From positions 1-64,000 of IMG/VR virus record IMGVR_UViG_3300050821_004255: a DNA stretch of 64,000 bases; one strand, written 5' to 3'. The stretch is from a virus. Position numbers and translations under genes: made by a program. The notes beneath the pieces were generated by a model, which saw only the letters and a list, made by a program, of their open reading frames with translations, had not been told where the DNA came from and made no database searches. This document shows, one piece after another, positions 6,316 through 62,275 of this stretch (the first letter of the stretch is position 1; every line of letters begins with the position of its first letter).

Positions 6316-7086
6316 TTAAAATAGCCGTTTCAGATTGGATAGCCGATCCCATTCACGGGAATCTTCTACAGGTGTGTTTTCATCCGTCCGATTGGCGGTG
6401 TTCCCATTCTTAAGCGCCTGCTGCGTTAGCTGGTCCGGATCGGGGAATCCTTGATTCACGGCCATTCGCGGCGTTATGGTTGGCCGAGCCTTGCGGTACC
6501 GCATCGCCGCTTGGCTCAGGATATCAGCTTTGACGGTGGCCGGATCGCATTTCATGTCGGAAGTGAAAAGATTGACCTGTGGCCCGTCTTCCTCGCTGGC
6601 ATCCTGGGCGTATAAAACGCGCACGAACTCCGTACCCTGCGGAGACGGCCTTACGTGCCGGTTAAGCGTTATTTTCCCAACGTCTGGAAGATCGATCGTT
6701 AGAGAAATCGGCAATGTATTCAAAGCCAGACTCTGAAGTTTAGCTTTCTTTTTTTCGACTTCCTCGTAGGTGTCCTGCATCACGGCGCTATCGGGATTTC
6801 TGACAATAGCCGTGGGTGGGGCTTCTTCGATGATCCTAGCGCCGTTTGCAGGAGCCGCTCCGATCAGCACGCCTTGCCCAAGATCCACTTCTTTGTACTG
6901 GCGCTCTGACGTCTGGATCAAGATGTTGGTTTTTGCCTTGGGCGCGGGTCCATCGCCTAGGATCGCCTCAGCCAGATCCAGGCCTTCCACAATGCACGCT
7001 GCGAGATCTGACGGCGAAAGGCCTCGGTCGGCATTGCGCTCAATCACTCGGGCGATGACTTGCTGATAGTGCGCTGGCTGGCTCAA
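6316..7086 (-). CDS. Hypothetical protein
   Basis: 256-aa ORF, GGAG upstream of TTG start; contains a palindrome copy. Confidence 0.65.
   Translation of the reverse strand: MSQPAHYQQVIARVIERNADRGLSPSDLAACIVEGLDLAEAILGDGPAPKAKTNILIQTSERQYKEVDLGQGVLIGAAPANGARIIEEAPPTAIVRNPDSAVMQDTYEEVEKKKAKLQSLALNTLPISLTIDLPDVGKITLNRHVRPSPQGTEFVRVLYAQDASEEDGPQVNLFTSDMKCDPATVKADILSQAAMRYRKARPTITPRMAVNQGFPDPDQLTQQALKNGNTANRTDENTPVEDSREWDRLSNLKRLF
6909..6926. repeat. 18-bp dispersed palindrome, copy 1
   Basis: ACGTCTGGATCAAGATGT, intragenic. Confidence 0.95.
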
Positions 7087-7096
7087 GCTCCGGCTC

Positions 7097-7636
7097 CTAG
7101 ACAGTTGGGTACGAATTAGCCGCTTGCATCTCTTCTAATTCAGCCAGTTCCCGAGCGCGCTCCGGCGTTTCGCCAGCGGCGCGATGCGCCATCTCAGAAA
7201 AAACTCTGTCTTTGTGCTCATCGGTCGCCGTCTCCAGCGAATCTTTGCTCATGCCGGGACCAACGACTAATTTAGTGAACTCGGCCACTGTCTCTCGATG
7301 CTTATCGGTCGCCACGGCGATCGCCTCACAGGCCTTGGTTGTGCCCTCCAGAATCTTCTCGCTGGCTTTCGCGCTGGAGTTGAGGGACTCAGTTAAGTAG
7401 TCGGTGCGACTGGCTAGTAGCCTCAGGCACGCTGCAAAGTCGGTCCTAGCCGTCGCTAGTTCTGCGGCCAGAGCTTCCTGTGATATCGCCAGTCGAGCCA
7501 CGGTGTCGATATTCGCTTTGTTGCGTTTTGCAGACTCTTCGCGTGCGTGCTTGACGGCGGCTATGATTTTGGTCGTGGCGAAATAAACCAAAATGGACAG
7601 TGCCGCGACAGTTACTGGATTCGATACAATTTGCAT
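7097..7636 (-). CDS. Membrane-anchored coiled-coil protein
   Basis: N-terminal TM helix (VTVAALSILVYFA) followed by helical region; start uncertain. Confidence 0.6.
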   Translation of the reverse strand: MQIVSNPVTVAALSILVYFATTKIIAAVKHAREESAKRNKANIDTVARLAISQEALAAELATARTDFAACLRLLASRTDYLTESLNSSAKASEKILEGTTKACEAIAVATDKHRETVAEFTKLVVGPGMSKDSLETATDEHKDRVFSEMAHRAAGETPERARELAELEEMQAANSYPTV

Positions 7637-7665
7637 TTCTGTACACGAAAATGCTACCATCAATC

Positions 7666-7944
7666 ATGGGCCAAGTCAATCATGTAGAATCACCAGCGAA
7701 ACGGCGTCTGGGTAAACTTGGGAGACCGGCGCTTCCTGCCAAGCGAAAACGAGCCAGGATTTCTGTGCGAATCTTACCGGCAACCGAAGAGGCCCTAACC
7801 AAGATCGGCGCACGTAACCTGGGCCGCGCAATTGATGAAATCGTGTCCGTCATCACCATAGACGCTCGCATGAAGAAAGCCTGCAAGACGGCACGCGAAC
7901 GCCTTGGCTTCGAGGACGACGGAATCCCAACTCAGCGAATTTAG
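7666..7944 (+). CDS. Ribbon-helix-helix-like DNA-binding protein
   Basis: GRP hook then RISVRILPATEEALTKIG...GRAIDEIV strand-helix-helix pattern; TTGCAT-N18-TACCAT upstream of ATG 7666. Confidence 0.6.
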   Translation: MGQVNHVESPAKRRLGKLGRPALPAKRKRARISVRILPATEEALTKIGARNLGRAIDEIVSVITIDARMKKACKTARERLGFEDDGIPTQRI

Positions 7945-8111
7945 GCCGCAGGAGTCTCTGGCGCTTTAGGGCAAAACTTCGAATGGACGAATTGCAGCAC
8001 GCGAGCCTGGGCGGCGGGGTCAAGTTCGGCAATAATTCGGCCAATCCTGGAAATAGCGGCGATCTCTGGATCTGTGGCGGTGCGGGTTCGAGCGGTAGCG
8101 GGTTTAGTCAT
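7941..8111 (-). CDS. Small hypothetical protein
   Basis: MTKPATART...; ATG lies 7 nt after a -10 box. Confidence 0.55.
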   Translation of the reverse strand: MTKPATARTRTATDPEIAAISRIGRIIAELDPAAQARVLQFVHSKFCPKAPETPAA

Positions 8112-8118
8112 GGCATTT

Positions 8119-8147
8119 ATTGTACACGAAAAGTACGTCTGGATCAA
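8119..8147 (-). promoter_or_regulatory. Sigma70-type promoter whose -35 lies inside a palindrome copy
   Basis: TTGATC(8147-8142)-N17-TACAAT(8124-8119)-N7-ATG(8111). Confidence 0.65.
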
Positions 8148-8152
8148 GACGT
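8135..8152. repeat. 18-bp dispersed palindrome, copy 2
   Basis: ACGTCTGGATCAAGACGT, 4 nt past the stop at 8157. Confidence 0.95.
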
Positions 8153-8156
8153 AAAA

Positions 8157-8903
8157 TCACTCGTCTTCGTCTGTTTCGAACCGGATCAGTCGGCCATTTT
8201 TGGAACGAGGCTCGGGTGGGTCTGGAGGCTTCGGCGCAGTCGGCTTGGATGGTCGAGTCTGAATCGAACCCATGGCGAACTGCAAAGCCATGGAGCGATC
8301 ATCATCGAGTGCATTGCGCAACCCCTGAAATGGATTGTTGGTGGCCTGCTGACCTCCCTGTAGCCAGCCGTAATTTGCTAATCGGTTTGACTCCGCCTCG
8401 GCAACTTGTTGAGACCACTGCATGAACTGCGCTTTAGCCTTGAAACGCTCTGCCTCGTCCCGCTGCTTACGCCACTGCGCTTCCGCGTAAAGCTTCTCAA
8501 TCGTATCTCCACTCGGCAGTGGCGTTCCCACATTCTTGATGACCGCGCTGCTTGCTGGATCTTTGCCGATCATGTACATATCTCCCATGGGAATGCCAGA
8601 ATCCATCTGGATCTCTGGAAAAGTAGCGCTTGACGAACCGGCCTCGCGCCAACCGGCACCGTATTCCTTCCAGCGCCGCTCCACGCATGTAGCGGCCACC
8701 CCGCCAATCCTTGCGACTAATTCCAATCCGTCTAAGCCGTCATATTCTAGCGTTGCGTAAACCAATTCAAGCGGTAACGATCTACGGAGCGCAAGGCGGT
8801 GGCGTAGGCGTGGTGAATCGTAGCATCTGCGGACGTATTTCTGATTGTCCGAAAGGAGATCTGCCGCCCAATCCGGCAAGCCGTTCGTGTTCAGTTCAGT
8901 CAT
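8157..8903 (-). CDS. Hypothetical protein with RSKNGRLIRFETDEDE C-terminal tail
   Basis: Long ORF overlapping the upstream gene's stop; start MTELNTNG probable. Confidence 0.65.
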   Translation of the reverse strand: MTELNTNGLPDWAADLLSDNQKYVRRCYDSPRLRHRLALRRSLPLELVYATLEYDGLDGLELVARIGGVAATCVERRWKEYGAGWREAGSSSATFPEIQMDSGIPMGDMYMIGKDPASSAVIKNVGTPLPSGDTIEKLYAEAQWRKQRDEAERFKAKAQFMQWSQQVAEAESNRLANYGWLQGGQQATNNPFQGLRNALDDDRSMALQFAMGSIQTRPSKPTAPKPPDPPEPRSKNGRLIRFETDEDE

Positions 8904-9894
8904 CGTCGTCGTCCGTCTCAAAGCGTATCATACGCCCATTCTTGGAGCGAATCTCTGGCGTTGGCTGTTCAGCCAAGATCTTGTCGATTCGATCTAGATC
9001 CTCAGTTATGCTGGGTCTTCGTATGCCTTCTTTGGTCGTCCACGTTCTCCACTGAAACTGTGGTGGGGGACTTACATTAGCCTCGCGCTCCAATAGTGAC
9101 ACCGCCAACTGTATCTGGGCCTCTAAATCTCCCGATACGTCAAGCGACGGGTATGTGCCGGCCACAGCGCGTCTCCAAGCATCTAGTATGCTCAAGTCAG
9201 AAGCTGATCGAAGAATTGGCGTAGGCAACCTGAGCCGAATCTCATTCAACGCGTTTCGCTGATCGGGATCGAGTCCAGGGCCGTCCCACTCGTTCACGGT
9301 TTTGGGTTTCGTCTCTGGCGGTGGGTATGGCCGTGCCGATGGATGGCCGTCTGAAATGAAATTGCTCAGTGACGGAAATTCGCCAACGGGCGTTCCTGTC
9401 GCCTCACTCAGAAAGAACGATGTGCCATCCCAAACGGACATCAAATATGGATTTACATTGAAGTAATCCAGCGAGTCACGGTGGTAAAAGAGTGCGCCAT
9501 CTGTATCGTCGCCATGGAAGCTGCTTTTGCGTAGGCGAGTCATAAATACAGGAAGCCTTTGGTTTGGAAGCGGCTCATCAAAGCCATAGACGACGCCTCG
9601 GCGCGGAATCGCCAGCGCCGGGAACCATGAATCGCCCTGTTCGGTTGGATACAACTGCAAGATCGCTTGGGGCTTGATCTCATCTTCCATCGCCAGGACG
9701 GTGCCGTAGCCACTCTCCCCGATGGCGTCTTTCAACTTGGCGCGAATGTCTTTTGGATACTGAACAGCGATATAACGCCGGCGAGCTTCTAACCGGCGCA
9801 GGCCGTCGAAATTTAGCTGATAATTCAGCTTGAAAAGTTCGCGATGGATGTTGAATGCGCCCACTGAATTATTGTACGCTAAAATGCTGGACAT
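8896..9894 (-). CDS. Hypothetical protein with RSKNGRMIRFETDDDDD C-terminal tail
   Basis: 332-aa ORF. Confidence 0.65.
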   Translation of the reverse strand: MSSILAYNNSVGAFNIHRELFKLNYQLNFDGLRRLEARRRYIAVQYPKDIRAKLKDAIGESGYGTVLAMEDEIKPQAILQLYPTEQGDSWFPALAIPRRGVVYGFDEPLPNQRLPVFMTRLRKSSFHGDDTDGALFYHRDSLDYFNVNPYLMSVWDGTSFFLSEATGTPVGEFPSLSNFISDGHPSARPYPPPETKPKTVNEWDGPGLDPDQRNALNEIRLRLPTPILRSASDLSILDAWRRAVAGTYPSLDVSGDLEAQIQLAVSLLEREANVSPPPQFQWRTWTTKEGIRRPSITEDLDRIDKILAEQPTPEIRSKNGRMIRFETDDDDD

Positions 9895-9923
9895 GGCAAG
9901 GGAATCGTGGGAGAATATTGGGC

Positions 9924-10295
9924 ATGAACACGCGCCGTGGCTTCCTCTCTTCTCTTCTGAGTGCCTGCACAGCGCTGATCGTTAGGCCGACAATGGCAGT
10001 GGCCACCGTGCCGAGGAACATCGCTTGGGACTATTTTGGTAACGTTGGCGCAGAGAAAGTCCTTACCGGGATTTTTATCGTGTGCCACCCGGTCAAGTCT
10101 CCCGTTCGGATATCGTTATCGGTGAGCGATCCTCCGAGGCAAATTGCGGAAGAAATTATAGACTGGCAGGCACCTTTTCCGAAGAACATCTTTTACATCT
10201 CCTGTCCTCCAACGGTCTGTCGCAACGTGCTCGTAACGTTCGAGTCGGCAACGCCATTCACAATTTATGAGTCGCATCTGACTGAGGCTTCGTAG
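9924..10295 (+). CDS. Tat-signal exported protein
   Basis: MNTRRGFLSSLLSACTALIVRPTMAVA twin-arginine motif; TGGACA-N17-GAGAAT-N7-ATG upstream. Confidence 0.6.
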   Translation: MNTRRGFLSSLLSACTALIVRPTMAVATVPRNIAWDYFGNVGAEKVLTGIFIVCHPVKSPVRISLSVSDPPRQIAEEIIDWQAPFPKNIFYISCPPTVCRNVLVTFESATPFTIYESHLTEAS

Positions 10296-10441
10296 TGAAA
10301 TACAAGATCCCCCGCTACTGTCCGATCTGCCAGCGAGGCCCGATCGCCAATCCAGGTGGCTACGTGAACCACGTCACGGCCTGCCGACGCAAGCGGACCT
10401 TAGGGATCATCAAAAGGCTGAGAAGGGCGCAACATGCCTGA
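10295..10441 (+). CDS. Small zinc-finger protein (48 aa, not in ORF track)
   Basis: GTG start; CPIC...H...C; overlaps both neighbours in coupled fashion. Confidence 0.45.
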   Translation: MKYKIPRYCPICQRGPIANPGGYVNHVTACRRKRTLGIIKRLRRAQHA

Positions 10442-10721
10442 ACTTGAAAAGCGGACTTACGTCTATGTCCAGAGGCCAGCTGAATACGAAATGGCTGGTT
10501 GCGAATGCGGGAACGATGATCCCGATTGGTCAGAATTCAAGGGCCATCTCTGGTGCCCAAAATGTCAGAAAGATTTTGTGCCTCAACATGGCGGCATTTT
10601 TGATGGACCTATTCCGGTGAACGCCATGCGCCTAATTGGCATCGACTTGCGGTCCTATAACCTGATAACCGGAATGATCGAAGAAGTTGACCAGCCGCAC
10701 CTGAAGGGTTTACTGGAATGA
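10434..10721 (+). CDS. Small zinc-ribbon protein
   Basis: CECG...WCPKC motifs. Confidence 0.6.
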   Translation: MPELEKRTYVYVQRPAEYEMAGCECGNDDPDWSEFKGHLWCPKCQKDFVPQHGGIFDGPIPVNAMRLIGIDLRSYNLITGMIEEVDQPHLKGLLE

Positions 10722-10724
10722 GTT

Positions 10725-10742
10725 ACGTCTGCATCCAGATGT
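10725..10742. repeat. 18-bp dispersed palindrome, copy 3
   Basis: ACGTCTGCATCCAGATGT at the convergence of two gene blocks. Confidence 0.9.
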
Positions 10743-10816
10743 ATATTTCAGTCATAACGGGCTCGAATGCTCGATCCTCCGCAGGAACCACGAGATGGAC
10801 CGTCCAGCCACTCCAG

Positions 10817-11756: not shown

Positions 11757-11780
11757 TTGATAGACAAGCGAGCGTAAATT

Positions 11781-12062: not shown

Positions 12063-12065
12063 TCC

Positions 12066-12422: not shown

Positions 12423-12426
12423 AACC

Positions 12427-13320: not shown

Positions 13321-13328
13321 GGCAAATG

Positions 13329-16895: not shown

Positions 16896-16913
16896 ACATC
16901 TGGATCAAGACGT
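16896..16913. repeat. 18-bp dispersed palindrome, copy 4
   Basis: ACATCTGGATCAAGACGT filling most of a 27-bp intergenic gap. Confidence 0.95.
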
Positions 16914-19301: not shown

Positions 19302-19330
19302 TTTACGTCTGGATCAAGATGTAGTATCAT
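19302..19330 (+). promoter_or_regulatory. Sigma70-type promoter with palindrome filling the -35/-10 spacer
   Basis: TTTACG-N17-TATCAT-N7-ATG(19338). Confidence 0.6.
19305..19322. repeat. 18-bp dispersed palindrome, copy 5
   Basis: ACGTCTGGATCAAGATGT, intergenic. Confidence 0.95.
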
Positions 19331-19961: not shown

Positions 19962-19979
19962 ACATCTTGATCCAGACGT
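19962..19979. repeat. 18-bp dispersed palindrome, copy 6
   Basis: ACATCTTGATCCAGACGT between convergent stops. Confidence 0.95.
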
Positions 19980-24359: not shown

Positions 24360-24360
24360 T

Positions 24361-25149: not shown

Positions 25150-27769
25150 AATTCTACGTCTGGATCAAGATGTAGCTTTGCTGCTTCTGCTGGCCTTACC
25201 GGCGATGAGCCAAATTGTCCCGACAGCCGTACAGGCAACGCGCGTCAGCAATATAACATCGGCTGCAACAGTGCTGGACAATAGATCGACCTATTTGCAA
25301 CTGAATGACTTTCATACATTCAATGTCAGCGGCTCAGGGACATGGTCGGTTCAGATTCAATACTCCGACACATCCGCGACTGGCCCATGGACAAACTTCC
25401 CAGAATCAGCGGCTCTCGTCACGAATACGACAGTGCCGCCAAGTGGATCAGGAACGGGATACCATGCGTGGATCAGGTTCTCGATAACCGGCACTGTATC
25501 TATCAATTATGCAGGGACGCGCGGTTTTTATGTCCCTACGTCTGGAGTCGCTGGAGGTGGGCCTCCGATCGCCGCCCCTTACCTGACGATGACTCCGAGT
25601 GCGCCACTCATAAATTCGTTCGCCATGAGCGGTCTTTCTACTGGCATCGTTAAAAATACGACGGGTACAGGCCAGCCGTCGATTGCAATGGGAACTGATC
25701 TGCCGACCGGAATACCGATAGCGTCGCTGGATACGGGAACCGTGACATCGACGGAGTACAACTACTTGCACGGGGTCACATCGGCAATTCAGACGCAGTT
25801 CAGCGGCAAAGTCGGCACAGGATCGTGCCCATCTCATCAGGTTGCCATTGCAACGATAAGTGCCGGCGTGACTTGCGTGCAGTTGGATGTCACGTCGAAC
25901 TATTTTGCGAATATAGGAACGACGACAACGGTGTTGCATGGCAACGCGTCCGGCAATCTATCTTTCAGCGCCGTAAATTTGCTGGCAGATATTGTGAATA
26001 CGCTTCCAAAGGCCAACAATCTTGCTACGGCAGTGTATACTGACCAATCCAATGTCTACACCGCTGGCACGCAAGACGTGCGGGGTGCGGTCCACTCTAT
26101 GCCAGCCGTGACAGGACTGTTCGCGGCACTTCCCGCCACCTGCACAGTTGGCGAGCAGTATTTCGCAACCGATAAACCGGCTGGGCAAAATCTGTACGGT
26201 TGCACGGCGACGAATACTTGGAATCTGGAAGGGCCTGTCGGAAGCGGTACCTTAACTAATGTTTCTAGCGCATGTGGGCTTTCTGGCGGCCCTATCACGA
26301 CTACCGGAACGCTCAAGATCTCTCCAACTGTTGTTGCGATATCTAGCACGACGCCAACGCTTTCAGCGGGCAATTGCGGCTTAACGAACCAGTTCACCGG
26401 AGCATCGCCAGCGGTCACGGTCCCCGCTCCAGGAGGTAGCTTCCCGAATGGCTGGTATGCCTACATTAGCTTCACAGGCTCCGGCACGCTAGTTCTCACT
26501 TCGGTTGCAAGCACGATCAACGGTTTCAGTTCTGTTTCTATAAATGCCGCGAACGGAGCGGGCGGCTTCCTAGTGAGCGATGGTACGAACTGGGAATACA
26601 TCTCCGGTGGGTCTTCCAGCGCTGGCGCAACTGCGATATTCGGTTATGATCTGGTCAATACGAGCGCCACGGTCCAGACTGTAGGTGGAGCGCAATGTAC
26701 CGCTTCGACGCCATGCAGCGTCGGTAAAGGCGCAGTCAACTCAGCCGCCTTGGTAGCTGGCGCGACTGCCACGCTAAGCGGCACGAGTGTAGGAGGAACT
26801 AATCAGGCGTGGTGGTACTACGATAGCCTGTTCACTTTGACGCTGGGACATAACGCTGCGACCACCGTCACCTGTAGCGGATGCACGACGGTGACCGGCA
26901 TTACCGGGTTCCCCGCCGATTCAATTCCGCTATGGAATACGACATTCACAAGCTTGGCGTGGAATTCGATTGTACCGGCGACGATGGATAGGCGCAGGGC
27001 TCAAACTGGCTCCGATGTCGTGGCTGGTCCAGGAAATGCCCAATCGGACGATCCGACTACCGGAATCCGCACGATTTCGACAGACCCCACGTTAACGCCG
27101 CGTTACTTCACAGGCTCTGGCACCCCGGCGCTAAGCTGCACGGCTGGCCGCGATTTTTACACCGATACGACTGGCATGCAACTGTATTTTTGCGATGCCA
27201 CAAATACGTGGAAATCGGCCAACAGTGCAGGTACGATGATAGTCCCGCTTCCGCTCGCTGGAACTGATCTATCCAGAGGTTATTATCCTGGCCCTGGAGT
27301 GATGACCAATGGAACTTTTGCTAATGCCCTTACTTATACCGGACCTGGCGCGATAGGGTCAAGCCCTCAGACAGTCGGTATTAGCTTAATTGTGGCGACG
27401 CCCAGTAGGTACGTGAAGGCTGAAATAATGGCGAGTCCCACGTGGAGTGCCGCTTCAGGGACAGTTGATTTCTCAGTGACAATTGAGGAGGGAGCTACTA
27501 ACACTACTGGATCGTGGAATTTAACCGGGTACGTCGGGTGTCAAGCCGTAGGCGCAATTCCCACATTTGGAACCGGCACCACTGTCAATGTAACCCCTCC
27601 GACTACTATAGGGTGGCCCTCCAAAGCTGTGTTTACGGCCTTGAATTTACCGGCGTCTTGCGCCCACGATCTACTACTTCAATTCTGGGTAGAGCGGGTT
27701 GCAGACACAGGAAGCCCAACTGGCGTGCCTTATCTGACCGAAATAACCGCAGTCATTCGCGGAAACTGA
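25139..27769 (+). CDS. Signal-peptide, Cys/Thr-rich fibre-like protein
   Basis: Start MPNRILRLDQDVALLLLLALPAMS-Q with GAGG RBS; LPATCTVGEQYFATD...NLYGCTATNTW-type modules occur twice. Confidence 0.7.
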   Translation: MPNRILRLDQDVALLLLLALPAMSQIVPTAVQATRVSNITSAATVLDNRSTYLQLNDFHTFNVSGSGTWSVQIQYSDTSATGPWTNFPESAALVTNTTVPPSGSGTGYHAWIRFSITGTVSINYAGTRGFYVPTSGVAGGGPPIAAPYLTMTPSAPLINSFAMSGLSTGIVKNTTGTGQPSIAMGTDLPTGIPIASLDTGTVTSTEYNYLHGVTSAIQTQFSGKVGTGSCPSHQVAIATISAGVTCVQLDVTSNYFANIGTTTTVLHGNASGNLSFSAVNLLADIVNTLPKANNLATAVYTDQSNVYTAGTQDVRGAVHSMPAVTGLFAALPATCTVGEQYFATDKPAGQNLYGCTATNTWNLEGPVGSGTLTNVSSACGLSGGPITTTGTLKISPTVVAISSTTPTLSAGNCGLTNQFTGASPAVTVPAPGGSFPNGWYAYISFTGSGTLVLTSVASTINGFSSVSINAANGAGGFLVSDGTNWEYISGGSSSAGATAIFGYDLVNTSATVQTVGGAQCTASTPCSVGKGAVNSAALVAGATATLSGTSVGGTNQAWWYYDSLFTLTLGHNAATTVTCSGCTTVTGITGFPADSIPLWNTTFTSLAWNSIVPATMDRRRAQTGSDVVAGPGNAQSDDPTTGIRTISTDPTLTPRYFTGSGTPALSCTAGRDFYTDTTGMQLYFCDATNTWKSANSAGTMIVPLPLAGTDLSRGYYPGPGVMTNGTFANALTYTGPGAIGSSPQTVGISLIVATPSRYVKAEIMASPTWSAASGTVDFSVTIEEGATNTTGSWNLTGYVGCQAVGAIPTFGTGTTVNVTPPTTIGWPSKAVFTALNLPASCAHDLLLQFWVERVADTGSPTGVPYLTEITAVIRGN
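25156..25173. repeat. 18-bp dispersed palindrome, copy 7
   Basis: ACGTCTGGATCAAGATGT at a gene junction, inside a signal-peptide n-region. Confidence 0.95.
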
Positions 27770-36897: not shown

Positions 36898-37332
36898 ATG
36901 GGCTTTTCGCAATGGATACTCGACATCGCCAAGAAGATTGGTCTGGATCTGAGTCAACCCGCATCGCCAGCGTGGGTCCCGACTTACGAACCTCAACAGT
37001 ACGTCACAACCACAATGGGCGATGGAACAACCAAAGTCGTCCCAATCGCCATCGACTATCTTGCGACGGCTGATACTGCCGCGCATCTGCAAAAGCTCTA
37101 CGGGGGAACTGTAGTCAGTGTCCCGTTCGAGGGCGATGGCGGCCCGAATTCGGCCTCGGCTCAGATGCGGGAACTGGAGCTTCCAGCGGCCGTCACTGGC
37201 CAGCCGCCAGTGCGGATCATCGCCGGTCTACTTGCCGTGTTCTACACGCAGAATCCGAACAATCCGGATGAGGCAGATCGGCTGTGCCGAGCGGCCATCA
37301 CAGCGCATGGCGCTGTGGCCGCTACATCTTGA
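36898..37332 (+). CDS. Hypothetical protein
   Basis: 144-aa ORF; stop lies inside a palindrome copy. Confidence 0.6.
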   Translation: MGFSQWILDIAKKIGLDLSQPASPAWVPTYEPQQYVTTTMGDGTTKVVPIAIDYLATADTAAHLQKLYGGTVVSVPFEGDGGPNSASAQMRELELPAAVTGQPPVRIIAGLLAVFYTQNPNNPDEADRLCRAAITAHGAVAATS

Positions 37333-37341
37333 TCCAGACGT
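37324..37341. repeat. 18-bp dispersed palindrome, copy 8
   Basis: ACATCTTGATCCAGACGT overlapping a stop codon. Confidence 0.95.
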
Positions 37342-38692: not shown

Positions 38693-38710
38693 ACATCTTG
38701 ATGCAGACGT
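38693..38710. repeat. 18-bp dispersed palindrome, copy 9
   Basis: ACATCTTGATGCAGACGT filling most of a 29-bp intergenic gap. Confidence 0.92.
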
Positions 38711-41164: not shown

Positions 41165-41626
41165 ATGAAGGGCAACGAGGCGGTAATCGCATCACTCAAA
41201 GAGGCCGCTGCTATAGAGGCTGCGCTGGCGACTCAGTACAGGCTCGATAAGCGGCAGCTAAAGAGATGGGGATTGAGTGGAATCGCAAAGAAAATTGGCG
41301 GCTTTTACGACGACGCCGAAGATTGGCTGAACTGGTTTGTGGACCGTCTCCTGTTATTCAACCAAAAGGGAGATTATGCTGGCGGTCGGGCAGTAAACCG
41401 ATCGACAGTGGCAGACACGTTGCAGAAGGCTCTCGATGCCGAAGAAGCGCTCCAGAAGCGATTCAATGAGATGGCGATAGAAGCCATGAAGGCCTCGGAC
41501 GATAATACGCGCAATCATTTGGAGCATGCGATCAAGGCGCACGAAGATCATATCGAGTGGCTAGAAAGGCAGCTAGCCCTGATTGCAACGCTTGGCCTGA
41601 AAGAATATATCGCCGAGCACATTTAA
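41165..41626 (+). CDS. bfr: Bacterioferritin-like protein with altered metal ligands
   Basis: MKGNEAVIASL...E....QY......WGL...DRLL...EDHIEWLERQLALI..LGLKEYI is colinear with bacterioferritin. Confidence 0.8.
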   Translation: MKGNEAVIASLKEAAAIEAALATQYRLDKRQLKRWGLSGIAKKIGGFYDDAEDWLNWFVDRLLLFNQKGDYAGGRAVNRSTVADTLQKALDAEEALQKRFNEMAIEAMKASDDNTRNHLEHAIKAHEDHIEWLERQLALIATLGLKEYIAEHI

Positions 41627-41643
41627 CATCTTGATCCAGACGT
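41626..41643. repeat. 18-bp dispersed palindrome, copy 10
   Basis: ACATCTTGATCCAGACGT between stop (41626) and next ATG (41647). Confidence 0.95.
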
Positions 41644-48125: not shown

Positions 48126-48143
48126 ACGTCTGCATCAAGATGT
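48126..48143. repeat. 18-bp dispersed palindrome, copy 11
   Basis: ACGTCTGCATCAAGATGT overlapping the glycosyltransferase stop. Confidence 0.92.
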
Positions 48144-51635: not shown

Positions 51636-51822
51636 CGGCTACGATCTCCGCGACTTGCCCCTGAAAGTCCGCGATACGCTGCGGACCAGCGCACAGCCCT
51701 ATCGCTTTCTGAAGCTGCCGGTCCAACGTCTTGATCAAGACGTGAGTTAGCTCCAACTGCGCCTCAAGGCTGGCGATGCGTCTATCTTTCGTCTCAAGCA
51801 ATTGCTGCGTGTCGATATGCAT
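51616..51822 (-). CDS. Small coiled-coil protein
   Basis: Start MHIDTQQ probable; upstream part of the tracked ORF overlaps the HNH gene. Confidence 0.5.
   Translation of the reverse strand: MHIDTQQLLETKDRRIASLEAQLELTHVLIKTLDRQLQKAIGLCAGPQRIADFQGQVAEIVADAENRA
51726..51743. repeat. 18-bp dispersed palindrome, copy 12 (perfect)
   Basis: ACGTCTTGATCAAGACGT, intragenic. Confidence 0.95.
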
Positions 51823-55818: not shown

Positions 55819-56083
55819 GGTTGGCCTCTTTCACATCTTGATCCAGACGTGACTTGCTTCTCCTTGCTGCTTGCTTAATTCCGTGCCTGCGGTTTTCTTC
55901 GGCGGCTTTAGCCGCTTGGCATGACTTCTTCGGACAGTAGTGGGCATTCCATGCGTGGCTCGTACAGGTCTGCCGACAACCACGGCAGATGAACTGGTAG
56001 GTATTCTGCTGCATGCCGACGAAGCCGCGCTGACGACCGGATTGATCAATTTCGCCGATCAGTGGCAATATATTTCCTCCCAC
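55808..56083 (-). CDS. Small zinc-binding protein
   Basis: CRGC...YC...C; start uncertain. Confidence 0.5.
   Translation of the reverse strand: MGGNILPLIGEIDQSGRQRGFVGMQQNTYQFICRGCRQTCTSHAWNAHYCPKKSCQAAKAAEENRRHGIKQAARRSKSRLDQDVKEANHGR
55833..55850. repeat. 18-bp dispersed palindrome, copy 13
   Basis: ACATCTTGATCCAGACGT (extends to 22 bp), just upstream of the dnaB RBS. Confidence 0.95.
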
Positions 56084-56886: not shown

Positions 56887-58244
56887 TTAACAGTCTCCTT
56901 TGCCATAGCTGCGTATTTCTCTTTCAGGCTCTCAACAGCCGTCTTGGGTTTGCTGTTGGCCGTTTTTGGCTTCTCGGCCCAAGCGAAGTCGCCCTTGTAG
57001 ACCCGGTACCAGTTCTGATTGTCGGCGTCTTTTGATTTTTTGAATAACCAACTGAAATCGTTGATATTTATGTACGGATGGCCCACGCGAATCATTGTGG
57101 CGCATCGCTCCAGGATCTCCTGGTAGTGCTGCACAAACTCAGGATCTTTCTCAGCCTCGGCAAGTTTGGCCTTCGGGGAATGCCCATTCCAGGTGATTGT
57201 TTTTGGTAGGCCGGCCTGATTCCAGCGTTCGACCCAAATTGGCAATACGGGCATTCCTAGCCCCGTAGGCGAGTTGGGGGTATCAGTGGACGGCAAAAGC
57301 CCCGGCGATTGCGCCTGTGAAGCCGCAGCCTTGGTTGTGTGGATTCTGGGGGCCTCGTCCAGTGAATCTTGTAGGAATTTCGGGAATGCCGATGCGGGGT
57401 GGTAATAGTTGTGCCAGTAAGTCTCAACCAGGAACTCATCAGCGATCGAGAGAACCTGTTCTTCAGTCACATCTGGATCAAGACGTAGCAATTCTTCGCC
57501 AATCTTGCGCTTGTCCTCAGCTCTAGGCTTTGCGCCGCCCTGTTTAAGTTTCGAAGCTATGAGCCTAGTGGTCTCCTTAGGATCTACCGGTGTCGCCAGC
57601 AACTCGACTTTTGCAGTGCAGGTGGGCGAGGGGGCCGGGGGAGTGGGTTTGAATTCTTGTTCTCCCAGTTCTGAGGAAGAAGGTTTTTGATTTTCTGTTT
57701 CTGAGAAAAAAGGGGGTATAGGGGTATTTAGTTCTTCTGTTCTTAGTTCTTCTTCCTTAGAATCTAATACACCCCCACCGTCGGACATTTGACCGATGGT
57801 TTGTCCGATGGTTTGTCCGGGGTCGGGCTGTTTTTCAAAGTTTTTGAGTGCGGACATTTGTCCGGGGTCGAATTGAAATACTTCGGTCGTTACGATCGCC
57901 TTATTGGCACGGGCTATATCAAAAAGATACCGATTGATTTTGCCTGGAACGCAAACTTCAGTAACAAAGCCCAGCTTCGCCATCCAGGCGATCCTCTCCT
58001 GGAGACGCCGAACGGAGTATAGCCCCACTGTATCGTTGAAAATGCTTGGCATAGTAGCCGTTATCCACGGATCTCCAGCTTGATTGGATCGTTCCATCCG
58101 TGCTAGCTCGCCGTTGGTCGCAAACTCAAAGAAGGAAAATAGGGCGGCCGCGCAGTGATCCCCGGAGAACATCTCGATGATGTGACGCCTAAGTGTTAGA
58201 TAATACTGCGACTCAGGGTGTTTAATGAGAGTTGTCTTAGGCAT
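56883..58244 (-). CDS. Phage replication initiator
   Basis: N-terminal wHTH-like region, iteron-coding linker, C-terminal DFSWLF....NW.RV..G.F motif; upstream of dnaB. Confidence 0.75.
   Translation of the reverse strand: MPKTTLIKHPESQYYLTLRRHIIEMFSGDHCAAALFSFFEFATNGELARMERSNQAGDPWITATMPSIFNDTVGLYSVRRLQERIAWMAKLGFVTEVCVPGKINRYLFDIARANKAIVTTEVFQFDPGQMSALKNFEKQPDPGQTIGQTIGQMSDGGGVLDSKEEELRTEELNTPIPPFFSETENQKPSSSELGEQEFKPTPPAPSPTCTAKVELLATPVDPKETTRLIASKLKQGGAKPRAEDKRKIGEELLRLDPDVTEEQVLSIADEFLVETYWHNYYHPASAFPKFLQDSLDEAPRIHTTKAAASQAQSPGLLPSTDTPNSPTGLGMPVLPIWVERWNQAGLPKTITWNGHSPKAKLAEAEKDPEFVQHYQEILERCATMIRVGHPYININDFSWLFKKSKDADNQNWYRVYKGDFAWAEKPKTANSKPKTAVESLKEKYAAMAKETVK
57469..57486. repeat. 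18-bp dispersed palindrome, copy 14
   Basis: ACATCTGGATCAAGACGT inside the initiator gene. Confidence 0.95.
57660..57875. other. Putative replication origin inside the initiator gene
   Basis: Short repeats CGGACATTTG x2, CCGATGGTTTGT x2, TTGTCCGGGGTCG x2 beside an AT-rich tract, as in lambdoid origins. Confidence 0.6.
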
Positions 58245-58830
58245 TAGGGAACCTCACAGCGAACTCCTCAGGGGTGAGATCTTTCTTCCTGATATTGCAA
58301 TAGGAGCAGGCGAGAGCGTAGTTGTCGGGATGGCTAGGGCCGCCGCGTGATCTAGGGATTTTGTGATCTAAATGCCAAGATTTACCGTCTGGACCGATTG
58401 ACTGATTACCTTGCTTAGCGCAATAAAAACAGATCCAATTCGAAGCCTCACCCAACCTTTTTTTAGTCCCAACAGCCTCAACCCTAATCCGCTTTCTTTC
58501 AATCGATACCTCTGGAGGAACAGCTTCATGTTCATCACGGCATCTTGGGTCGTCTTCCGGCCATAGGCCACATAAGAAGAGTTTCTCCAAAATCCTATGG
58601 GTAGTCTCTACGCTCAGACTGGCAGCGGTTGCGATTGATTCCTCGGTTTTATCCGGTGGCCCCCAACTGAAACCCAGTGTTCTGCGGAACAGAAGACAGA
58701 GAATCTTAAATTCGTCTCCGCTCAATGCTGAGGCAAGCTCATCCAATACGATATTCGGTATCTCTGTAAAGCAAAAAACTGTTGACAGATCAAGCAGTTT
58801 ACGCCCATTGGGGCTATGAGTCGCAGACAT
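58237..58830 (-). CDS. wHTH-HNH fusion protein
   Basis: FTEIPNIVLD...LSGDEFKIL..L.RRTLGF (replication-O-like) plus CFYC...HLDHKIPRSRGG.....N..LAC..CN..K. Confidence 0.8.
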   Translation of the reverse strand: MSATHSPNGRKLLDLSTVFCFTEIPNIVLDELASALSGDEFKILCLLFRRTLGFSWGPPDKTEESIATAASLSVETTHRILEKLFLCGLWPEDDPRCRDEHEAVPPEVSIERKRIRVEAVGTKKRLGEASNWICFYCAKQGNQSIGPDGKSWHLDHKIPRSRGGPSHPDNYALACSYCNIRKKDLTPEEFAVRFPNA

Positions 58831-59271: not shown

Positions 59272-59628
59272 TCACAGCGCCGCCGCCTTCCGTTCTGGCA
59301 TCACAATGCGGATCTCGGTGATCAGGACTTTCTCAGAGTAGCAATGCGAGCAAGTGATGTGCTCTGGATCGTCGGCTCCCGAGAAGTCGTGCATGGTCCA
59401 TTTTGTTCGGCAATCGCAGCACTCGAACCGGTAGGCGTTAGCGTAGGCTCCGCCGTGTCGGCGACCGGCTTTCCAAATGGCTGTTTTAGAATCGCGCCCG
59501 CAGCGGATGATGACGCGAGCATAGCGGTAGTCGGGCTGCTTTACATCTTGATCAAGACGTGAACGCGAATTGTCGATATGAGTTTTCACACTACCTCCAT
59601 GAGAGGGGCGGCTCCGGCTGGGGCTCAT
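59272..59628 (-). CDS. Zinc-ribbon protein
   Basis: CCDC...CSHC.S..V. Confidence 0.55.
   Translation of the reverse strand: MSPSRSRPSHGGSVKTHIDNSRSRLDQDVKQPDYRYARVIIRCGRDSKTAIWKAGRRHGGAYANAYRFECCDCRTKWTMHDFSGADDPEHITCSHCYSEKVLITEIRIVMPERKAAAL
59543..59560. repeat. 18-bp dispersed palindrome, copy 15
   Basis: ACATCTTGATCAAGACGT. Confidence 0.95.
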
Positions 59629-60782: not shown

Positions 60783-61085
60783 ATGAACGCGGTCGCTGTT
60801 TTCGGCGCTCTGTTCGATCGGGGATAGCCGGCGCTCCAGTTCCTGAAACCGGGATTCATTGCGAGTACGATCAGCCGCTGCGATCGCCTGGAGGGCTTGC
60901 AGTGCCCGCTCAATCTCAACGCGATTGCCGTTAATCTCGAACGCCGGCTTAATCGGCCTACGGTCAATTCCAGAGGCTTCCGGACCAACCGCTGCGGCCT
61001 CGGCGCGCTTCCAGAACTTCAGAAGAGCACCGAGGACCGCTACGCCAAACGCAATAATCCCACCTGACTTAGCATCGAAGTCCAT
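60642..61085 (-). CDS. N-terminal TM plus coiled-coil protein
   Basis: GGIIAFGVAVLGALLKFW then heptads; 3' end overlaps the convergent gene. Confidence 0.55.
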   Translation of the reverse strand: MDFDAKSGGIIAFGVAVLGALLKFWKRAEAAAVGPEASGIDRRPIKPAFEINGNRVEIERALQALQAIAAADRTRNESRFQELERRLSPIEQSAENSDRVHSRLDRRIDDLSDDVRAFKLRTLRWRDQQAPLGPQGDTDEGGRHGHD

Positions 61086-61100
61086 GTAGGGGGCCTGGAG

Positions 61101-61253
61101 CTAGTCGCCGTCGCTATTACCGTCGCTGTTACCAGGGTTGGGCGGTCCCGTTGGAGGGGGATCTGGATCATCGGCCGGTTTAGGTTTTGGACCTGTCGGC
61201 TTGGCCGGTGGATCGGAGCTGTGGTGCTTGTGTGGCTTCTCTTCTTGTGGCAT
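61101..61253 (-). CDS. Pro-rich 50-aa peptide (not in ORF track)
   Basis: MPQEEKPHKHHSSDPPAKPTGPKPKPADDPDPPPTGPPNPGNSDGNSDGD; TAAACT 6 nt upstream of ATG. Confidence 0.45.
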   Translation of the reverse strand: MPQEEKPHKHHSSDPPAKPTGPKPKPADDPDPPPTGPPNPGNSDGNSDGD

Positions 61254-61311
61254 GCCAAGAGTTTATCAGTGAAATGCATGAAAATACAAGAGAGAACTTT
61301 AGAGATTCAGA

Positions 61312-61845
61312 TTATTTTGCCTGATAATCCCCAACGGAGTTCAGCCGGAACGGACTCACGATAACGCGCGGCTCAACATACATTGGCTGAAAGTCTCCTT
61401 TTTGTTTTTCGCTCGCGCAGATCACCCAAGTGCCTTCGGCAGTCGGCGGCATGAAGAGGCCGTTAGGCTCCGCTTGATCGACCATGGATGATGTCGCATA
61501 GCTGGGCGATAATGGGCGATGAGGATTTGTGAACTGGACTCCGTAAGGCAGCCCATAGCCGATGGAATCGCAAATGTGCCACAATCGACCCTGAAGATCA
61601 GGCAGATATGTAAATGTGGCAATATTCTGGTCACGTAGCTCATAGAGCTTGCGGACAATCTTCTTTTCCGTGAAGTTTGAAATACCCGGCATCCCGGTTT
61701 GAGCAACAGCCTGTTCGTTCGCGATGGCCTGAGCGTTGTCCATCTTCCTGTCGGCGGCGCTATGCTGATCGGTGCATGACTCTTCCGATCCCATCAGCAA
61801 TAGGCATAACGGAAGAATCGCCAGAACGGCTAAGGTTTTTCTCAT
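61312..61845 (-). CDS. Exported (lipo)protein of a conserved phage gene pair
   Basis: Signal peptide; CDSIGYGLPY..QFTNP...QAEPNGLF.P....TWV.C...YVEP.V.VSPF. Confidence 0.7.
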   Translation of the reverse strand: MRKTLAVLAILPLCLLLMGSEESCTDQHSAADRKMDNAQAIANEQAVAQTGMPGISNFTEKKIVRKLYELRDQNIATFTYLPDLQGRLWHICDSIGYGLPYGVQFTNPHRPLSPSYATSSMVDQAEPNGLFMPPTAEGTWVICASEKQKGDFQPMYVEPRVIVSPFRLNSVGDYQAK

Positions 61846-62231
61846 AGCGTCCCCTTCATCTGATTCACGAAGGCCTGAAGGTCTCCAGGCAGTTTCGCGT
61901 TGTCAACTAACGCGGCCTCAGAGATGATCAGGGACCGCAAAGAAGCCTGCTGCGCGCTCCCTGGCTGGGCGTTCTGATACTGGAAACGCAAGCGGCTCAA
62001 GTACTCGGTCTTGCCCTGCACGTAGCTTTGCGTGTTCTCAAAAACCTCGCGCTTGGCGTTCTCCATCTTGGGAGCCCAGAAGCGGTAGATAGCCAGATCG
62101 CCACCAGTGGCGACAAAGCCAAGGCCGTAGCATACAAGCGTGAGGGCCAGTAGGCCCAGCGCTATTCTCGGAAGGCTCCAATAAGCCTCTCGTTGGATTT
62201 CTCGGAAGCCGTTGCGGTAATCAGTGTTCAT
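61842..62231 (-). CDS. Membrane-anchored partner protein
   Basis: One TM helix, REVFENTQSYVQG motif; AAGGAG RBS. Confidence 0.7.
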   Translation of the reverse strand: MNTDYRNGFREIQREAYWSLPRIALGLLALTLVCYGLGFVATGGDLAIYRFWAPKMENAKREVFENTQSYVQGKTEYLSRLRFQYQNAQPGSAQQASLRSLIISEAALVDNAKLPGDLQAFVNQMKGTL

Positions 62232-62257
62232 AGTCGTTCTCCTTTGTTTTTGATTTC

Positions 62258-62275
62258 ACGTCTTGATCAAGATGT
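62258..62275. repeat. 18-bp dispersed palindrome, copy 16
   Basis: ACGTCTTGATCAAGATGT abutting a stop codon. Confidence 0.95.

What the first reader, a model, noticed from the sequence alone, without database searches (positions are those of the whole stretch)
6909..62275. Genome-wide array of 16 near-identical 18-bp palindromes (ACRTCTKSATSMAGAYGT)
Seen: copies start at 6909, 8135, 10725, 16896, 19305, 19962, 25156, 37324, 38693, 41626, 48126, 51726, 55833, 57469, 59543 and 62258. Variation is confined to three symmetric position pairs, and flanks are usually Y...R. About 12 copies lie at gene junctions (touching stops, or filling tiny gaps before an ATG); the rest are accommodated inside proteins in different frames (RLDQDV, RLDPDV, NILIQT, HVLIKT). 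They span early, replication and virion modules on both strands but are missing from the fibre blocks (1-6.9 kb, 25.2-37.3 kb). Sense-strand copies often contain A.C mismatches, which argues for a dimeric protein binding dsDNA rather than an RNA hairpin. I do not recognise it as parS, matS, FNR or LexA. Inference: a phage-wide binding-site network, either stoperator-like silencing sites or centromere/loading-type sites that organise or protect the genome.
Basis: partly seen in the sequence, partly recalled or inferred. Interest (0 to 1): 0.9.

Follow-up and report, generated by a model that had tools for sequence, protein, structure and literature searches.

The report
Phage-wide docking palindrome, likely RHH-bound
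An uncultured phage of about 110 kb carries some 30 evenly spread copies of one 18-base near-palindrome. Its relatives carry their own versions, and the sites are most likely docking sites on double-stranded DNA for a small phage-encoded ribbon-helix-helix protein.

Summary
The window holds 16 exact copies of ACRTCTKSATSMAGAYGT where none is expected. The 78-kb record holds three more, and a 33-kb contig that supplies the rest of the same genome holds 11.

No other virus, metagenome contig or bacterial genome searched carries more than a chance single copy.

The motif is one instance of a trait shared by this uncultured phage family of about 100 kb. Thirteen of the 17 relatives' records examined have their own 14-18 bp near-palindrome, 9-30 copies in the whole genomes counted, and most share the core GTCY-N6-RGAC.

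Copies are spaced more evenly than random. They are enriched at gene junctions but also lie inside genes. Orientation is independent of transcription, and one dyad position is systematically mismatched. These features argue against RNA hairpins, promoters, terminators and host repeats.

I found a candidate binder, a small conserved protein at window 7651/7666-7944 (+) with a predicted ribbon-helix-helix fold. It occurs in 11 motif-bearing genomes and in none of four complete motif-free ones. One complete motif-bearing genome lacks it. Its predicted DNA-facing residue tracks the arm sequence in 11 of 11 genomes.

Binding and its effect are inferred, not shown. The ParB domain is not supported as the binder. 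The scan has noted similar phage-wide palindromes on other DNA, and the closest published case is the Cluster O mycobacteriophage repeat.

The parts
6909..6926 (.). palindrome copy inside ORF 6316-7086 (-)
8135..8152 (.). copy between the stop of 8157-8921 (-) and the ATG at 8111; overlaps the first hexamer of a weak sigma-70-like match
10725..10742 (.). copy at the junction of 10434-10721 and the next + gene
16896..16913 (.). copy 5 nt after the stop of 16244-16891 and 6 nt before the ATG at 16919
19305..19322 (.). copy 8 nt after the stop of 19016-19297 and 16 nt before the ATG at 19338
19962..19979 (.). copy in the convergent gap between a + gene (end 19938) and the HNH gene 20077-20553 (-)
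25156..25173 (.). copy 7 nt after the stop of 24193-25149, just before the fibre-like gene; the equivalent junction in relative G002 has a copy at 66076
37324..37341 (.). copy containing the TGA stop of 36898-37332; the equivalent junction in G002 has a copy at 78272
38693..38710 (.). copy 4 nt after the stop of 37994-38689 and 9 nt before the ATG at 38719
41626..41643 (.). copy overlapping the last base of the stop of 41165-41626, 4 nt before the ATG at 41647
48126..48143 (.). copy overlapping the stop of 48135-49148 (-), 19 nt before the start at 48107
51726..51743 (.). the one perfectly symmetric copy, inside ORF 51616-52050 (-)
55833..55850 (.). copy 15 nt upstream of the DnaB-like helicase start at 55818 (-)
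57469..57486 (.). copy inside 56883-58244 (-), a replication-initiator look-alike
59543..59560 (.). copy inside ORF 59272-59628 (-)
62258..62275 (.). copy touching the stop of 62275-62478 (-), 27 nt before the start at 62231
7651..7944 (+). candidate binder RHH-C, a small protein (start ATG 7651 or 7666) with a predicted ribbon-helix-helix fold, conserved in 11 motif-bearing genomes

Best explanation
The 18-bp near-palindromes are docking sites on double-stranded DNA for a phage-encoded ribbon-helix-helix protein, RHH-C, encoded at window 7651/7666-7944 (+). I infer that it binds as a dimer of dimers, one beta-ribbon per ACRTCT arm. About 30 sites, one per 3.7 kb on average, form a genome-wide lattice that sits mostly in the tiny gaps between genes. 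From there the bound protein would modulate transcription locally, as a roadblock or insulator within operons and as an operator where a site overlaps a promoter. Alternatively it would mark and organise the phage chromosome. Protein and sites co-evolve, so each lineage of this phage family has its own site sequence. Shown: the sites, their statistics, the family-wide pattern, the predicted fold, and the co-occurrence and co-variation. Inferred: the binding itself, the stoichiometry and the effect on the phage.
For: 1. The window has 16 copies against 0 expected, and both contigs together have 30.
2. The two contigs are complementary parts of one genome, by synteny with the complete relative G002.
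3. Thirteen of the 17 relatives' records examined have their own dispersed near-palindrome, 9-30 copies in the whole genomes counted, and most share GTCY-N6-RGAC.
4. Several junctions are conserved between this phage and G002 although the flanking proteins are only 30-50% identical: after TerL, before the portal gene, before the fibre gene and before the 37402 homologue.
5. In relative G003 the palindrome is flanked on one side by one or two extra direct GGACAT units 7-8 bp apart. That layout suits cooperative protein arrays, not hairpins.
6. Dyad position 3/16 is mismatched in 24 of 29 sites, and no site has two A-halves (P = 1.6e-4). Position 7/12 is mismatched in 21 of 29 (P = 0.016). Pairing is therefore selected against, while each half-site keeps a narrow alphabet.
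7. RHH-C is detected in G000, G002, G006, G007, G008, G009, G011, G012, G019, G021 and L298, all motif-bearing. It is absent from the complete motif-free G010, G014, G017 and G018.
8. G019 was predicted from its RHH-C gene to have a motif. One was then found, close to ACGTATGCGCGCATACGT, with at least 12 copies in 60 kb.
9. The AlphaFold model has an extended strand followed by two helices. About half of the top 50 structural rows are RHH DNA-binding domains such as omega, Arc, Mnt, NikR, AmrZ, ArtA, RelB and ParD.
10. The predicted DNA-facing strand residue x4 is S, S, G, G, G, L in genomes with GTCT or GTAT arms and W, F, F, H, F in genomes with TCC arms. This is an 11/11 partition, and two of the cases were predicted before they were read.
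Against: RHH-C has no Pfam, PDB-sequence or Foldseek hit, and the structural Z-scores are only 3-3.5. The co-variation is confounded by phylogeny and amounts to roughly two clades. One complete motif-bearing genome (G016) has no detectable RHH-C, and three incomplete ones (G003, G004, G013) show none either. A copy lies within 300 nt of the RHH-C gene in only 4 of 8 genomes. The motif-free status of G017 and G018 rests on 21-kb loci only. In several relatives many sites lie inside genes and the junction enrichment is weak, so a purely transcriptional role is uncertain. Even spacing is unusual for classical operators.
Confidence: 0.45

Rival explanations
1. The sites are double-stranded DNA docking sites, but for a different phage protein. 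Candidates are the replication-initiator look-alike at 56883-58244, the second RHH at G000 66217-66426 (outside the window), or one of the HNH endonucleases with helix-turn-helix tails.
For: 56883-58244 resembles RepA_N, Phage_rep_O and Phg_2220_C proteins in the ESM Atlas. Its family has a copy inside or within 300 nt of the gene in 5 of 7 genomes and is absent from the motif-free G014. The G002 homologue of the second RHH has a copy 33 nt upstream of its start. The two contigs hold six HNH genes, three of them within 200 nt of a copy.
Against: The 5-of-7 proximity is only about P = 0.08 by my own estimate. The initiator family is undetectable in the complete motif-bearing G016, and positional analogues exist in G014. 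The second RHH is found only in G002. The HNH genes are not one orthologous family. None of these shows residue-to-base co-variation.
Confidence: 0.2
2. The copies are recombination joints. Short identical sequences at gene boundaries would let cassettes, including homing-endonuclease genes, be gained, lost or swapped between co-infecting relatives.
For: On G001, 6 kb lie between TerL and the next gene conserved with G002, where G002 has about 0.3 kb. That stretch holds three HNH genes, and copies at 4347, 6434, 7961 and 9005 divide it into units. One copy plus 13 nt of flank is duplicated at G001 9005 and window 37324, alongside a relocated DUF7873 gene. Recombination between such repeats is reported for Cluster O phages (PMC4351075).
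Against: This does not explain the narrow half-site alphabet, the enforced asymmetry, the copies inside genes, the even spacing, or why all copies changed in concert between lineages. Recombination may be a side effect of any dispersed repeat.
Confidence: 0.1
3. The copies are targets of a site-specific nuclease, nickase or DNA-modifying enzyme of the phage, giving localised nicks as in T5 or phage tf, or site-specific modification.
For: The genome encodes several HNH endonucleases, a DNA methyltransferase, a glycosyltransferase and a PurZ-like enzyme. Most copies have GATC at the centre. Localised nicks at consensus sequences are known in phages (PMC3517423, title and abstract).
Against: Three copies lack GATC, and relatives have other centres. 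Nick sites described so far are asymmetric and strand-specific. Cutting both strands at 30 sites would fragment the genome. No enzyme family co-occurs with the motif.
Confidence: 0.08
4. The copies act as RNA or single-stranded DNA hairpins, as terminators, processing or stability elements, or hairpin promoters.
For: One strand of the commonest variant folds to -8 to -10 kcal/mol with z about -3.5. Many copies abut stop codons. Two copies score as terminator-like.
Against: The well-folding strand is the sense strand at only 7 of 15 scorable sites. At 38693 and 41626 the mRNA form folds at -2 to -3.3 kcal/mol, no better than shuffles. The Watson-Crick A-T combination at pair 3/16 never occurs, and mismatches are preferred. 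Terminator-like matches are at chance level, and none coincides with a copy in 36-64 kb. Rfam gives no hit. The copies inside genes and the one-sided direct units in G003 do not fit hairpins.
Confidence: 0.05
5. The copies are binding sites of a host factor, or a host repeat carried by the phage.
For: The palindrome class resembles sites of host nucleoid proteins, and the host is unknown.
Against: A scan of 185,579 species genomes gave 94 stretches with a single match each. By my own estimate about 140 are expected by chance, and no locus had more than one copy. The metagenome and virus scans found multiple copies only on this phage's own contigs, apart from one 2.7-kb metagenome contig with two copies that I did not examine further. 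Close relatives carry different motifs.
Confidence: 0.04

Closest known systems
17-bp dyad repeat of Cluster O mycobacteriophages (TGTTCGGNNNCCGAACA; PMC4351075)
   Same: More than 30 near-identical short inverted repeats per genome, in short intergenic gaps and also inside genes. Orientation is unrelated to transcription, most copies are not near promoters, the repeat is absent from host genomes, and recombination between copies causes indels. The authors propose a dimeric DNA-binding protein but know no function.
   Different: The sequence, host and phage family are unrelated. Here the trait is traced across a diverse family with diverging sequences, with systematic dyad asymmetry, even spacing and a specific candidate binder.
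Repressor-stoperator systems of Cluster A mycobacteriophages (PMC9283540, PMC6550527)
   Same: Many binding sites of one phage protein are distributed across the genome, often in short intergenic gaps (abstracts). From my own knowledge, not read here: there are roughly 20-35 sites per genome, and protein and sites co-evolve into lineage-specific specificities.
   Different: The stoperator repressor is monomeric and recognises an asymmetric sequence (title of PMC9283540). From my own knowledge, stoperators are 13 bp long, oriented with transcription, and belong to temperate phages. Here the sites are near-palindromic, their orientation is random (7 against 8), and no tyrosine integrase was found.
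KorB with its OB operators on plasmid RK2 (PMC11790492)
   Same: KorB loads at OB operator sites and silences promoters up to 1.5 kb away. That OB is a short palindrome present in about a dozen dispersed copies, some far from promoters, is from my own knowledge.
   Different: KorB is a ParB-family CTPase clamp. ParB-type domains are not conserved in motif-bearing relatives here, and the candidate binder has an RHH fold.
Ribbon-helix-helix operator systems (omega of pSM19035, Arc and Mnt of P22, MetJ, CopG)
   Same: A small RHH protein reads repeated short subsites in inverted or direct arrangement a few base pairs apart. The omega entries 1irq and 2bnw (heptad repeats) are among the best structural rows. 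The G003 arrays with 7-8 bp spacing look alike. Near-symmetric operators are usual in this class (own knowledge).
   Different: Known RHH regulators control one or a few promoters. A lattice of about 30 sites across a phage of about 110 kb with no integrase found is not, to my knowledge, described. The sequence family has no Pfam model.

Membership tests
Dispersed dyad repeats of phages (Cluster O type) | Tens of near-identical short inverted repeats spread through one phage genome, both intergenic and inside genes | tested here: met
   30 copies on G000 plus G001; 11-12 of the 16 window copies lie at junctions and 4-5 inside ORFs
Dispersed dyad repeats of phages (Cluster O type) | The Cluster O sequence itself, or homology of the phage to Cluster O | tested here: not met
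   The motif is different. No cultured relative exists, and the best capsid match is Myxococcus phage Mx9 at 25% identity
Stoperator systems (Cluster A) | Site orientation correlates with the direction of transcription | tested here: not met
   7 sites co-oriented and 8 anti-oriented
Stoperator systems (Cluster A) | Temperate phage with an immunity repressor and an integrase | tested here: inconclusive
   No PF00589 match in G000, G001 or three complete relatives. Serine integrases and repressors were not tested
ParB/KorB with parS or OB sites | A ParB-family protein co-occurs with the palindrome | tested here: not met
   The ddrB-ParB domain occurs only in 41647-46200. PF18763 and PF02195 are absent, or below the cut-off, in the motif-bearing complete G002, G009 and G011
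Ribbon-helix-helix repressor with operator | The binder has the RHH fold (beta strand, helix, helix) | tested here: inconclusive
   The model has pLDDT 76 with the right order of elements. About half of the top 50 structural rows are RHH domains, but Z is only 3-3.5, and Pfam, PDB-sequence and Foldseek give no hit
Ribbon-helix-helix repressor with operator | The operator is made of two or more short subsites in inverted or direct repeat | tested here: met
   Two ACRTCT arms 12 bp apart centre to centre; extra direct units in G003
Ribbon-helix-helix repressor with operator | The protein binds the site | not testable with these tools
   Only co-occurrence and co-variation are available
Intrinsic terminators | G+C-rich stem followed by a T run, on the sense strand | tested here: not met
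   Only 2 of the 16 window copies score. Terminator-like matches are at chance level
Sigma-70-type promoters | Two hexamers at a fixed register relative to the motif | tested here: not met
   Two copies overlap weak 9/12 matches and one abuts such a match. None does so in 36-64 kb
Known RNA families | A match to an Rfam model | tested here: not met
   No match at gathering thresholds
REP elements with RAYT transposase | Strictly extragenic palindromes with a Y1 transposase gene | tested here: inconclusive
   Several copies lie inside ORFs. A Y1 transposase was not searched for specifically

The most novel reading that the evidence does not exclude
A whole family of uncultured phages of about 100 kb, apparently lytic, uses a ribbon-helix-helix protein and an evenly spaced lattice of 10-30 near-palindromic sites as a genome-wide self-marking or organising system, not as promoter-level repression. 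The bound protein could insulate transcription units, shield or compact the chromosome, or tell phage DNA from host DNA. Its specificity code drifts together with one DNA-facing residue and so also separates lineages.
Probability: 0.2. Interest if true: 0.8.

Novelty: new variant of a known kind. Interest (0 to 1): 0.6.

Why it matters
Phage-wide dispersed palindromes have been reported, for example in Cluster O mycobacteriophages, but their function and binder remain unknown. Here the trait can be followed through a diverse phage family, with 17 relatives' records examined, most of them whole or near-whole. The site sequence diverges stepwise. A single small protein co-occurs with it, and one residue of that protein tracks one base of the site. 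That turns an unexplained repeat into a testable protein-DNA recognition pair. If confirmed, it would give a natural series of orthogonal RHH-operator pairs and a handle on how a regulator and about 30 sites change specificity together.

Tried and rejected
- Homodimer prediction of RHH-C: no verdict.
- RHH-C gave nothing in Pfam at E up to 1, in a PDB sequence-profile search, in Foldseek, or in hhalign against the phage's other RHH.
- Megablast against 50,697 phage records found no match. Relatives found through DnaB were too distant to use.
- Candidates rejected or left open: the ParB domain; 52505-53323, with no domain, no PDB relative, and present in the motif-free G014; the gene family of 6316-7086, whose in-gene copies fall at non-homologous linker positions; and the HNH genes, which are not one family.
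- The sigma-like Pfam hits of 49130-49837 turned out to be the HTH tail of an HNH homing endonuclease.
- The pattern GAGGT-N5-ACCTC is not a motif in G019.
- Two measures of position relative to genes, based on open frames of at least 100 codons or +/-45 nt, were too noisy in these G+C-rich genomes.
- Cluster membership of NCBI capsid homologues gave no host names.
- The literature searches found no description of this phage family.

Full report
**Observation.** The pattern ACRTCTKSATSMAGAYGT has 16 exact matches in the window at the stated coordinates. None is expected in 100 dinucleotide-preserving shuffles, and allowing up to two mismatches adds nothing.

The window is the first 64 kb of a 78,037-bp IMG/VR record, G000. 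The rest of the record holds two more exact copies (70256, 74392) and a one-mismatch copy (72381).

Each half-site reads AC[G/A]TCT[T/G][G/C]A. The dyad extends weakly by one to two bases: the base before the site is C or T in 25 of 29 copies and the base after it is A or G in 21 of 29.

**The genome.** A pattern scan of 2.9 million viral contigs found multiple copies on only one other contig, IMGVR_UViG_3300050821_005361 (G001, 33,397 bp). It has 8 exact and 3 one-mismatch copies.

- G001 shares no nucleotide similarity with G000 apart from one palindrome copy with 13 nt of flank and a 12-nt tandem repeat that ends both contigs.
- Its genes (small and large terminase, portal) fill exactly the part of the complete 99-kb relative G002 that G000 lacks.
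- I therefore read G000 and G001 as two pieces of one genome of about 111 kb with 30 copies.

**Is it a host repeat?** No.

- Across one genome for each of 185,579 prokaryote species, the 14-specified-base version of the motif gave 94 stretches, each with a single match. By my own estimate about 140 are expected by chance.
- The metagenome scan returned single matches, this phage's own contigs, and one 2.7-kb contig with two copies that I did not examine further.
- There is no close relative among 50,697 deposited phages. The best capsid match is Myxococcus phage Mx9 at 25% identity.

**A family-wide trait.** The major capsid protein (14590-15669, SU10-type) has hundreds of uncultured homologues on contigs of about 95-110 kb. 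I fetched 80 capsid-centred loci and then whole records of 15 relatives.

None carries this phage's motif, but most carry their own near-palindrome:

| Relative | Motif | Copies |
|---|---|---|
| G002 | CGTCTYTATARAGACG | 22 |
| G003 | TGTCTTGNNCAAGACA | 15 |
| G004 | STCCAGNNCTGGAS | 23 |
| G006 | CACTCCTATATAGGAGTG | 14 |
| G007 | GTCTGKATMCAGAC | 16 |
| G008 | GTCCAGATCTGGAC | 9 |
| G009 | RTCCGANNTCGGAY | 30 |
| G011 | AGTATT-N4-AATACT | 19 |
| G012 | GTCCGRATYCGGAC | 17 |
| G013 | GTGCAGNNCTGCAC | 18 |
| G016 | GTCCRATATYGGAC | 11 |
| G019 | close to ACGTATGCGCGCATACGT | at least 12 in 60 kb |

- Most of these motifs share the frame GTCY-N6-RGAC.
- G002, the closest relative (71% capsid identity), keeps this phage's arms and differs only in the central hexamer.
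- The complete genomes G010 and G014 have no such repeat.
- The capsid loci of G017 and G018 show none either.

**Properties that constrain function.**

1. *Position.* In G000, 11 of 18 copies lie within 15 nt of the stop of an ORF of at least 80 aa, against 13.6% of random positions (p = 4e-6). Across 13 records, 77 of 224 sites lie where no frame stays open for +/-90 nt, against 36 expected. In several relatives most copies are inside ORFs, as five are here.
2. *Conserved junctions.* Between this phage and G002, copies sit at equivalent places although the flanking proteins are only 30-50% identical. These are the site after the TerL stop (also in G003), before the portal gene, before the fibre-like gene (25156 and 66076) and before the 37402 homologue (37324 and 78272).
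3. *Spacing.* Spacing is more even than random in 12 of 13 records, with CV 0.43-0.82 against about 0.9. The Fisher-combined P is 1.3e-6.
4. *Main strand switches.* The two main strand switches of G000, near 9.9 kb and 46.6 kb, carry no copy.
5. *Orientation.* When copies are oriented by their asymmetry, 7 are co-directional and 8 anti-directional with transcription.
6. *Asymmetry.* Pair 3/16 is G with T in 24 of 29 copies, G with C in 5, and never A with T. The chance of no site with two A-halves is 1.6e-4. Pair 7/12 is mismatched in 21 of 29 (P = 0.016). Similar one-position asymmetries recur in G004, G007, G009, G012 and G016.
7. *Direct repeats in G003.* There the palindrome is followed on one side only, and on either side irrespective of gene direction, by one or two direct GGACAT units 7-8 bp apart.

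**What these exclude.**

- *RNA hairpin.* The strand reading ACGUCU...AGAUGU folds at -8 to -10 kcal/mol, but the complementary strand folds at only -2 to -5. At 38693 and 41626 the weak form is the messenger, and it is no better than shuffles. Compensatory A-T pairs are avoided rather than favoured. Rfam finds nothing.
- *Terminators and promoters.* Terminator-like and sigma-70-like matches are at chance level overall. Only two copies score as terminator-like. Two overlap weak 9/12 promoter matches, and a third abuts one.
- *ParB.* The ddrB-ParB domain of 41647-46200 is real, but ParB-type domains are missing from the motif-bearing complete relatives.
- *Lysogeny.* No tyrosine integrase is present in G000, G001 or three complete relatives. 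Three relatives have direct terminal repeats. A lysogeny-type stoperator role is therefore unlikely.

**A candidate binder.** I clustered the proteins of 16 records with phmmer. I looked for families present in motif-bearing genomes and absent from G010 and G014.

- One such family is a small protein on the + strand at window 7600-7944, with likely start ATG 7651 or 7666. It was hidden under longer antisense ORFs.
- Its conserved core...LP..KRV....RV.P.T...L...N.GRA.D..V, looks like a ribbon-helix-helix.
- A profile finds it in G000, G002, G006, G007, G008, G009, G011 and G012. It also finds it in L298, G019 and G021. All of these are motif-bearing.
- It is not found in the complete motif-free G010, G014, G017 and G018.
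- G019 had no recognised motif when its RHH-C gene was found. The prediction that it should have one was then borne out.
- The exception is G016, which is complete and motif-bearing but has no hit. G003, G004 and G013 also lack a hit but are 72-85% complete.
- In most of these genomes the gene lies divergently next to the family of 6316-7086.

**Fold.** With a seven-sequence alignment, AlphaFold gives pLDDT 76. The model has an extended segment at residues 14-25, a helix at 26-35, a tight turn and a helix at 40-53.

- Foldseek finds nothing.
- The exhaustive structural comparison lists RHH DNA-binding domains in about half of the top 50 rows, among them omega, ArtA, NikR, Arc, Mnt, AmrZ, CopA, RelB, ParD, PutA, SvtR and ORF56. 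All align to residues of about 14-60, at Z of 3-3.5.
- Each match is weak, as expected for a 45-residue domain. The enrichment is what I rely on.
- Pfam, PDB-sequence and hhalign tests were negative.

**Co-variation.** In the strand R-h-x2-h-x4-x-R-V-x-P, the alternate positions should face the DNA.

| x4 residue | Genomes | Arm type |
|---|---|---|
| S, S, G, G, G, L | G000, G002, G007, G021, G011, G019 | GTCT or GTAT |
| W, F, F, H, F | G012, G008, G006, G009, L298 | GTCC, CTCC or RTCC |

This is an 11/11 partition, with Fisher probability 1/462. G021 and L298 were read after the rule was stated and fit it. G019 (L at x4) fits only the broader non-aromatic class. The two classes largely follow the capsid phylogeny, so the number of independent events is small.

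**Reading.** The copies are most likely docking sites for RHH-C. It would bind as a dimer of dimers across the two arms, which are 12 bp apart centre to centre. The enforced dyad mismatches either reflect an intrinsically asymmetric complex or keep the sites from forming hairpins or cruciforms.

What the bound protein does is open. The junction bias and the three promoter-adjacent copies suggest local transcriptional control. The even spacing, the copies inside genes and the indifference to orientation suggest a chromosome-wide marking or organising role.

The rivals are set out in their own section of this report: another phage DNA-binding protein, recombination joints linked to the many HNH genes, nick or modification sites, hairpins, and a host factor.

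**Comparison with known systems.**

- The closest published case is the 17-bp repeat of Cluster O mycobacteriophages. It has 34 copies in the phage Corndog, intergenic and coding, and is unrelated to transcription direction. It is mostly away from promoters and absent from hosts. A binder is proposed there but neither binder nor function is known (PMC4351075).
- Stoperators (PMC9283540, PMC6550527) share the many distributed sites of one phage protein. Site-repressor co-evolution there is from my own knowledge. They differ in site symmetry, and by my own knowledge in orientation and lifestyle.
- KorB with its OB operators (PMC11790492) is a working analogue, but the protein family is not present here.
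- Earlier notes of this scan describe similar phage-wide palindromes on other DNA. They served as leads to these papers, not as evidence.

Noticed in passing
G000 77880-78037 (L028 13880-14037) and G001 33266-33397: Both contigs end in the same 12-nt tandem repeat (unit AGCCATCGCCAG, at least 13 copies). This probably broke the assembly, and it links the two contigs into one genome of about 111 kb.
   Followed up: partly
window 20077-20553 (-), 49130-49837 (-), 58237-58830 (-); G001 (L024) 5216-5770 (-), 7362-7883 (+), 8365-8823 (+): Six free-standing HNH endonuclease genes of at least three types, some with HTH tails. Three sit in a 6-kb stretch between TerL and the next gene conserved with G002, and palindrome copies divide that stretch into units.
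   Followed up: partly
window 62475-63665 (-): A PurZ-like adenylosuccinate-synthetase homologue (phrog_1211, E = 3e-65). It raises the question of whether the genome uses a modified adenine.
   Followed up: no
window 56883-58244 (-): A 453-aa protein without Pfam or PHROG hits whose ESM Atlas look-alikes are replication initiators (RepA_N, Phage_rep_O, Phg_2220_C). It is probably the origin-binding protein next to DnaB.
   Followed up: partly
window 7638-7649 and 8121-8132 (+): The same 12-mer, TGTACACGAAAA, lies directly before the ATG at 7651 of the RHH-C gene and directly beside the palindrome copy at 8135. It may be a second shared control element or a small duplication.
   Followed up: no
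G001 9005-9035 and window 37324-37354: A palindrome copy plus 13 nt of flank is duplicated at 93.5% identity. In G002 the equivalent copy lies between a DUF7873 gene and the 37402 homologue, and in this phage the DUF7873 gene (62% identical) has moved to G001 with its copy.
   Followed up: partly
G003 (L329-L332), e.g. 31856, 43522, 67141, 71614: Palindrome copies are extended on one side by one or two direct GGACAT units 7-8 bp apart, even inside a giant ORF.
   Followed up: partly
G019 (L387) 4223-14408: A second, different palindrome family (core AGCGCAGATCTGCGCT, 7 copies, four of them within 400 bp) lies beside the dispersed 18-mer family.
   Followed up: no
G008 and G009 whole records: Very high-copy short repeats: a GTGAGCGAGCCA-type word up to 61 times in G008 and a unit of about 23 nt 16-23 times in G009. 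They could be tandem arrays or CRISPR-like arrays and were not examined.
   Followed up: no
window 41647-46200 (+): A 1517-aa protein with a ddrB-type ParB domain (residues 763-896), downstream of a transglycosylase-bearing protein. It is probably an injected polyvalent protein.
   Followed up: partly
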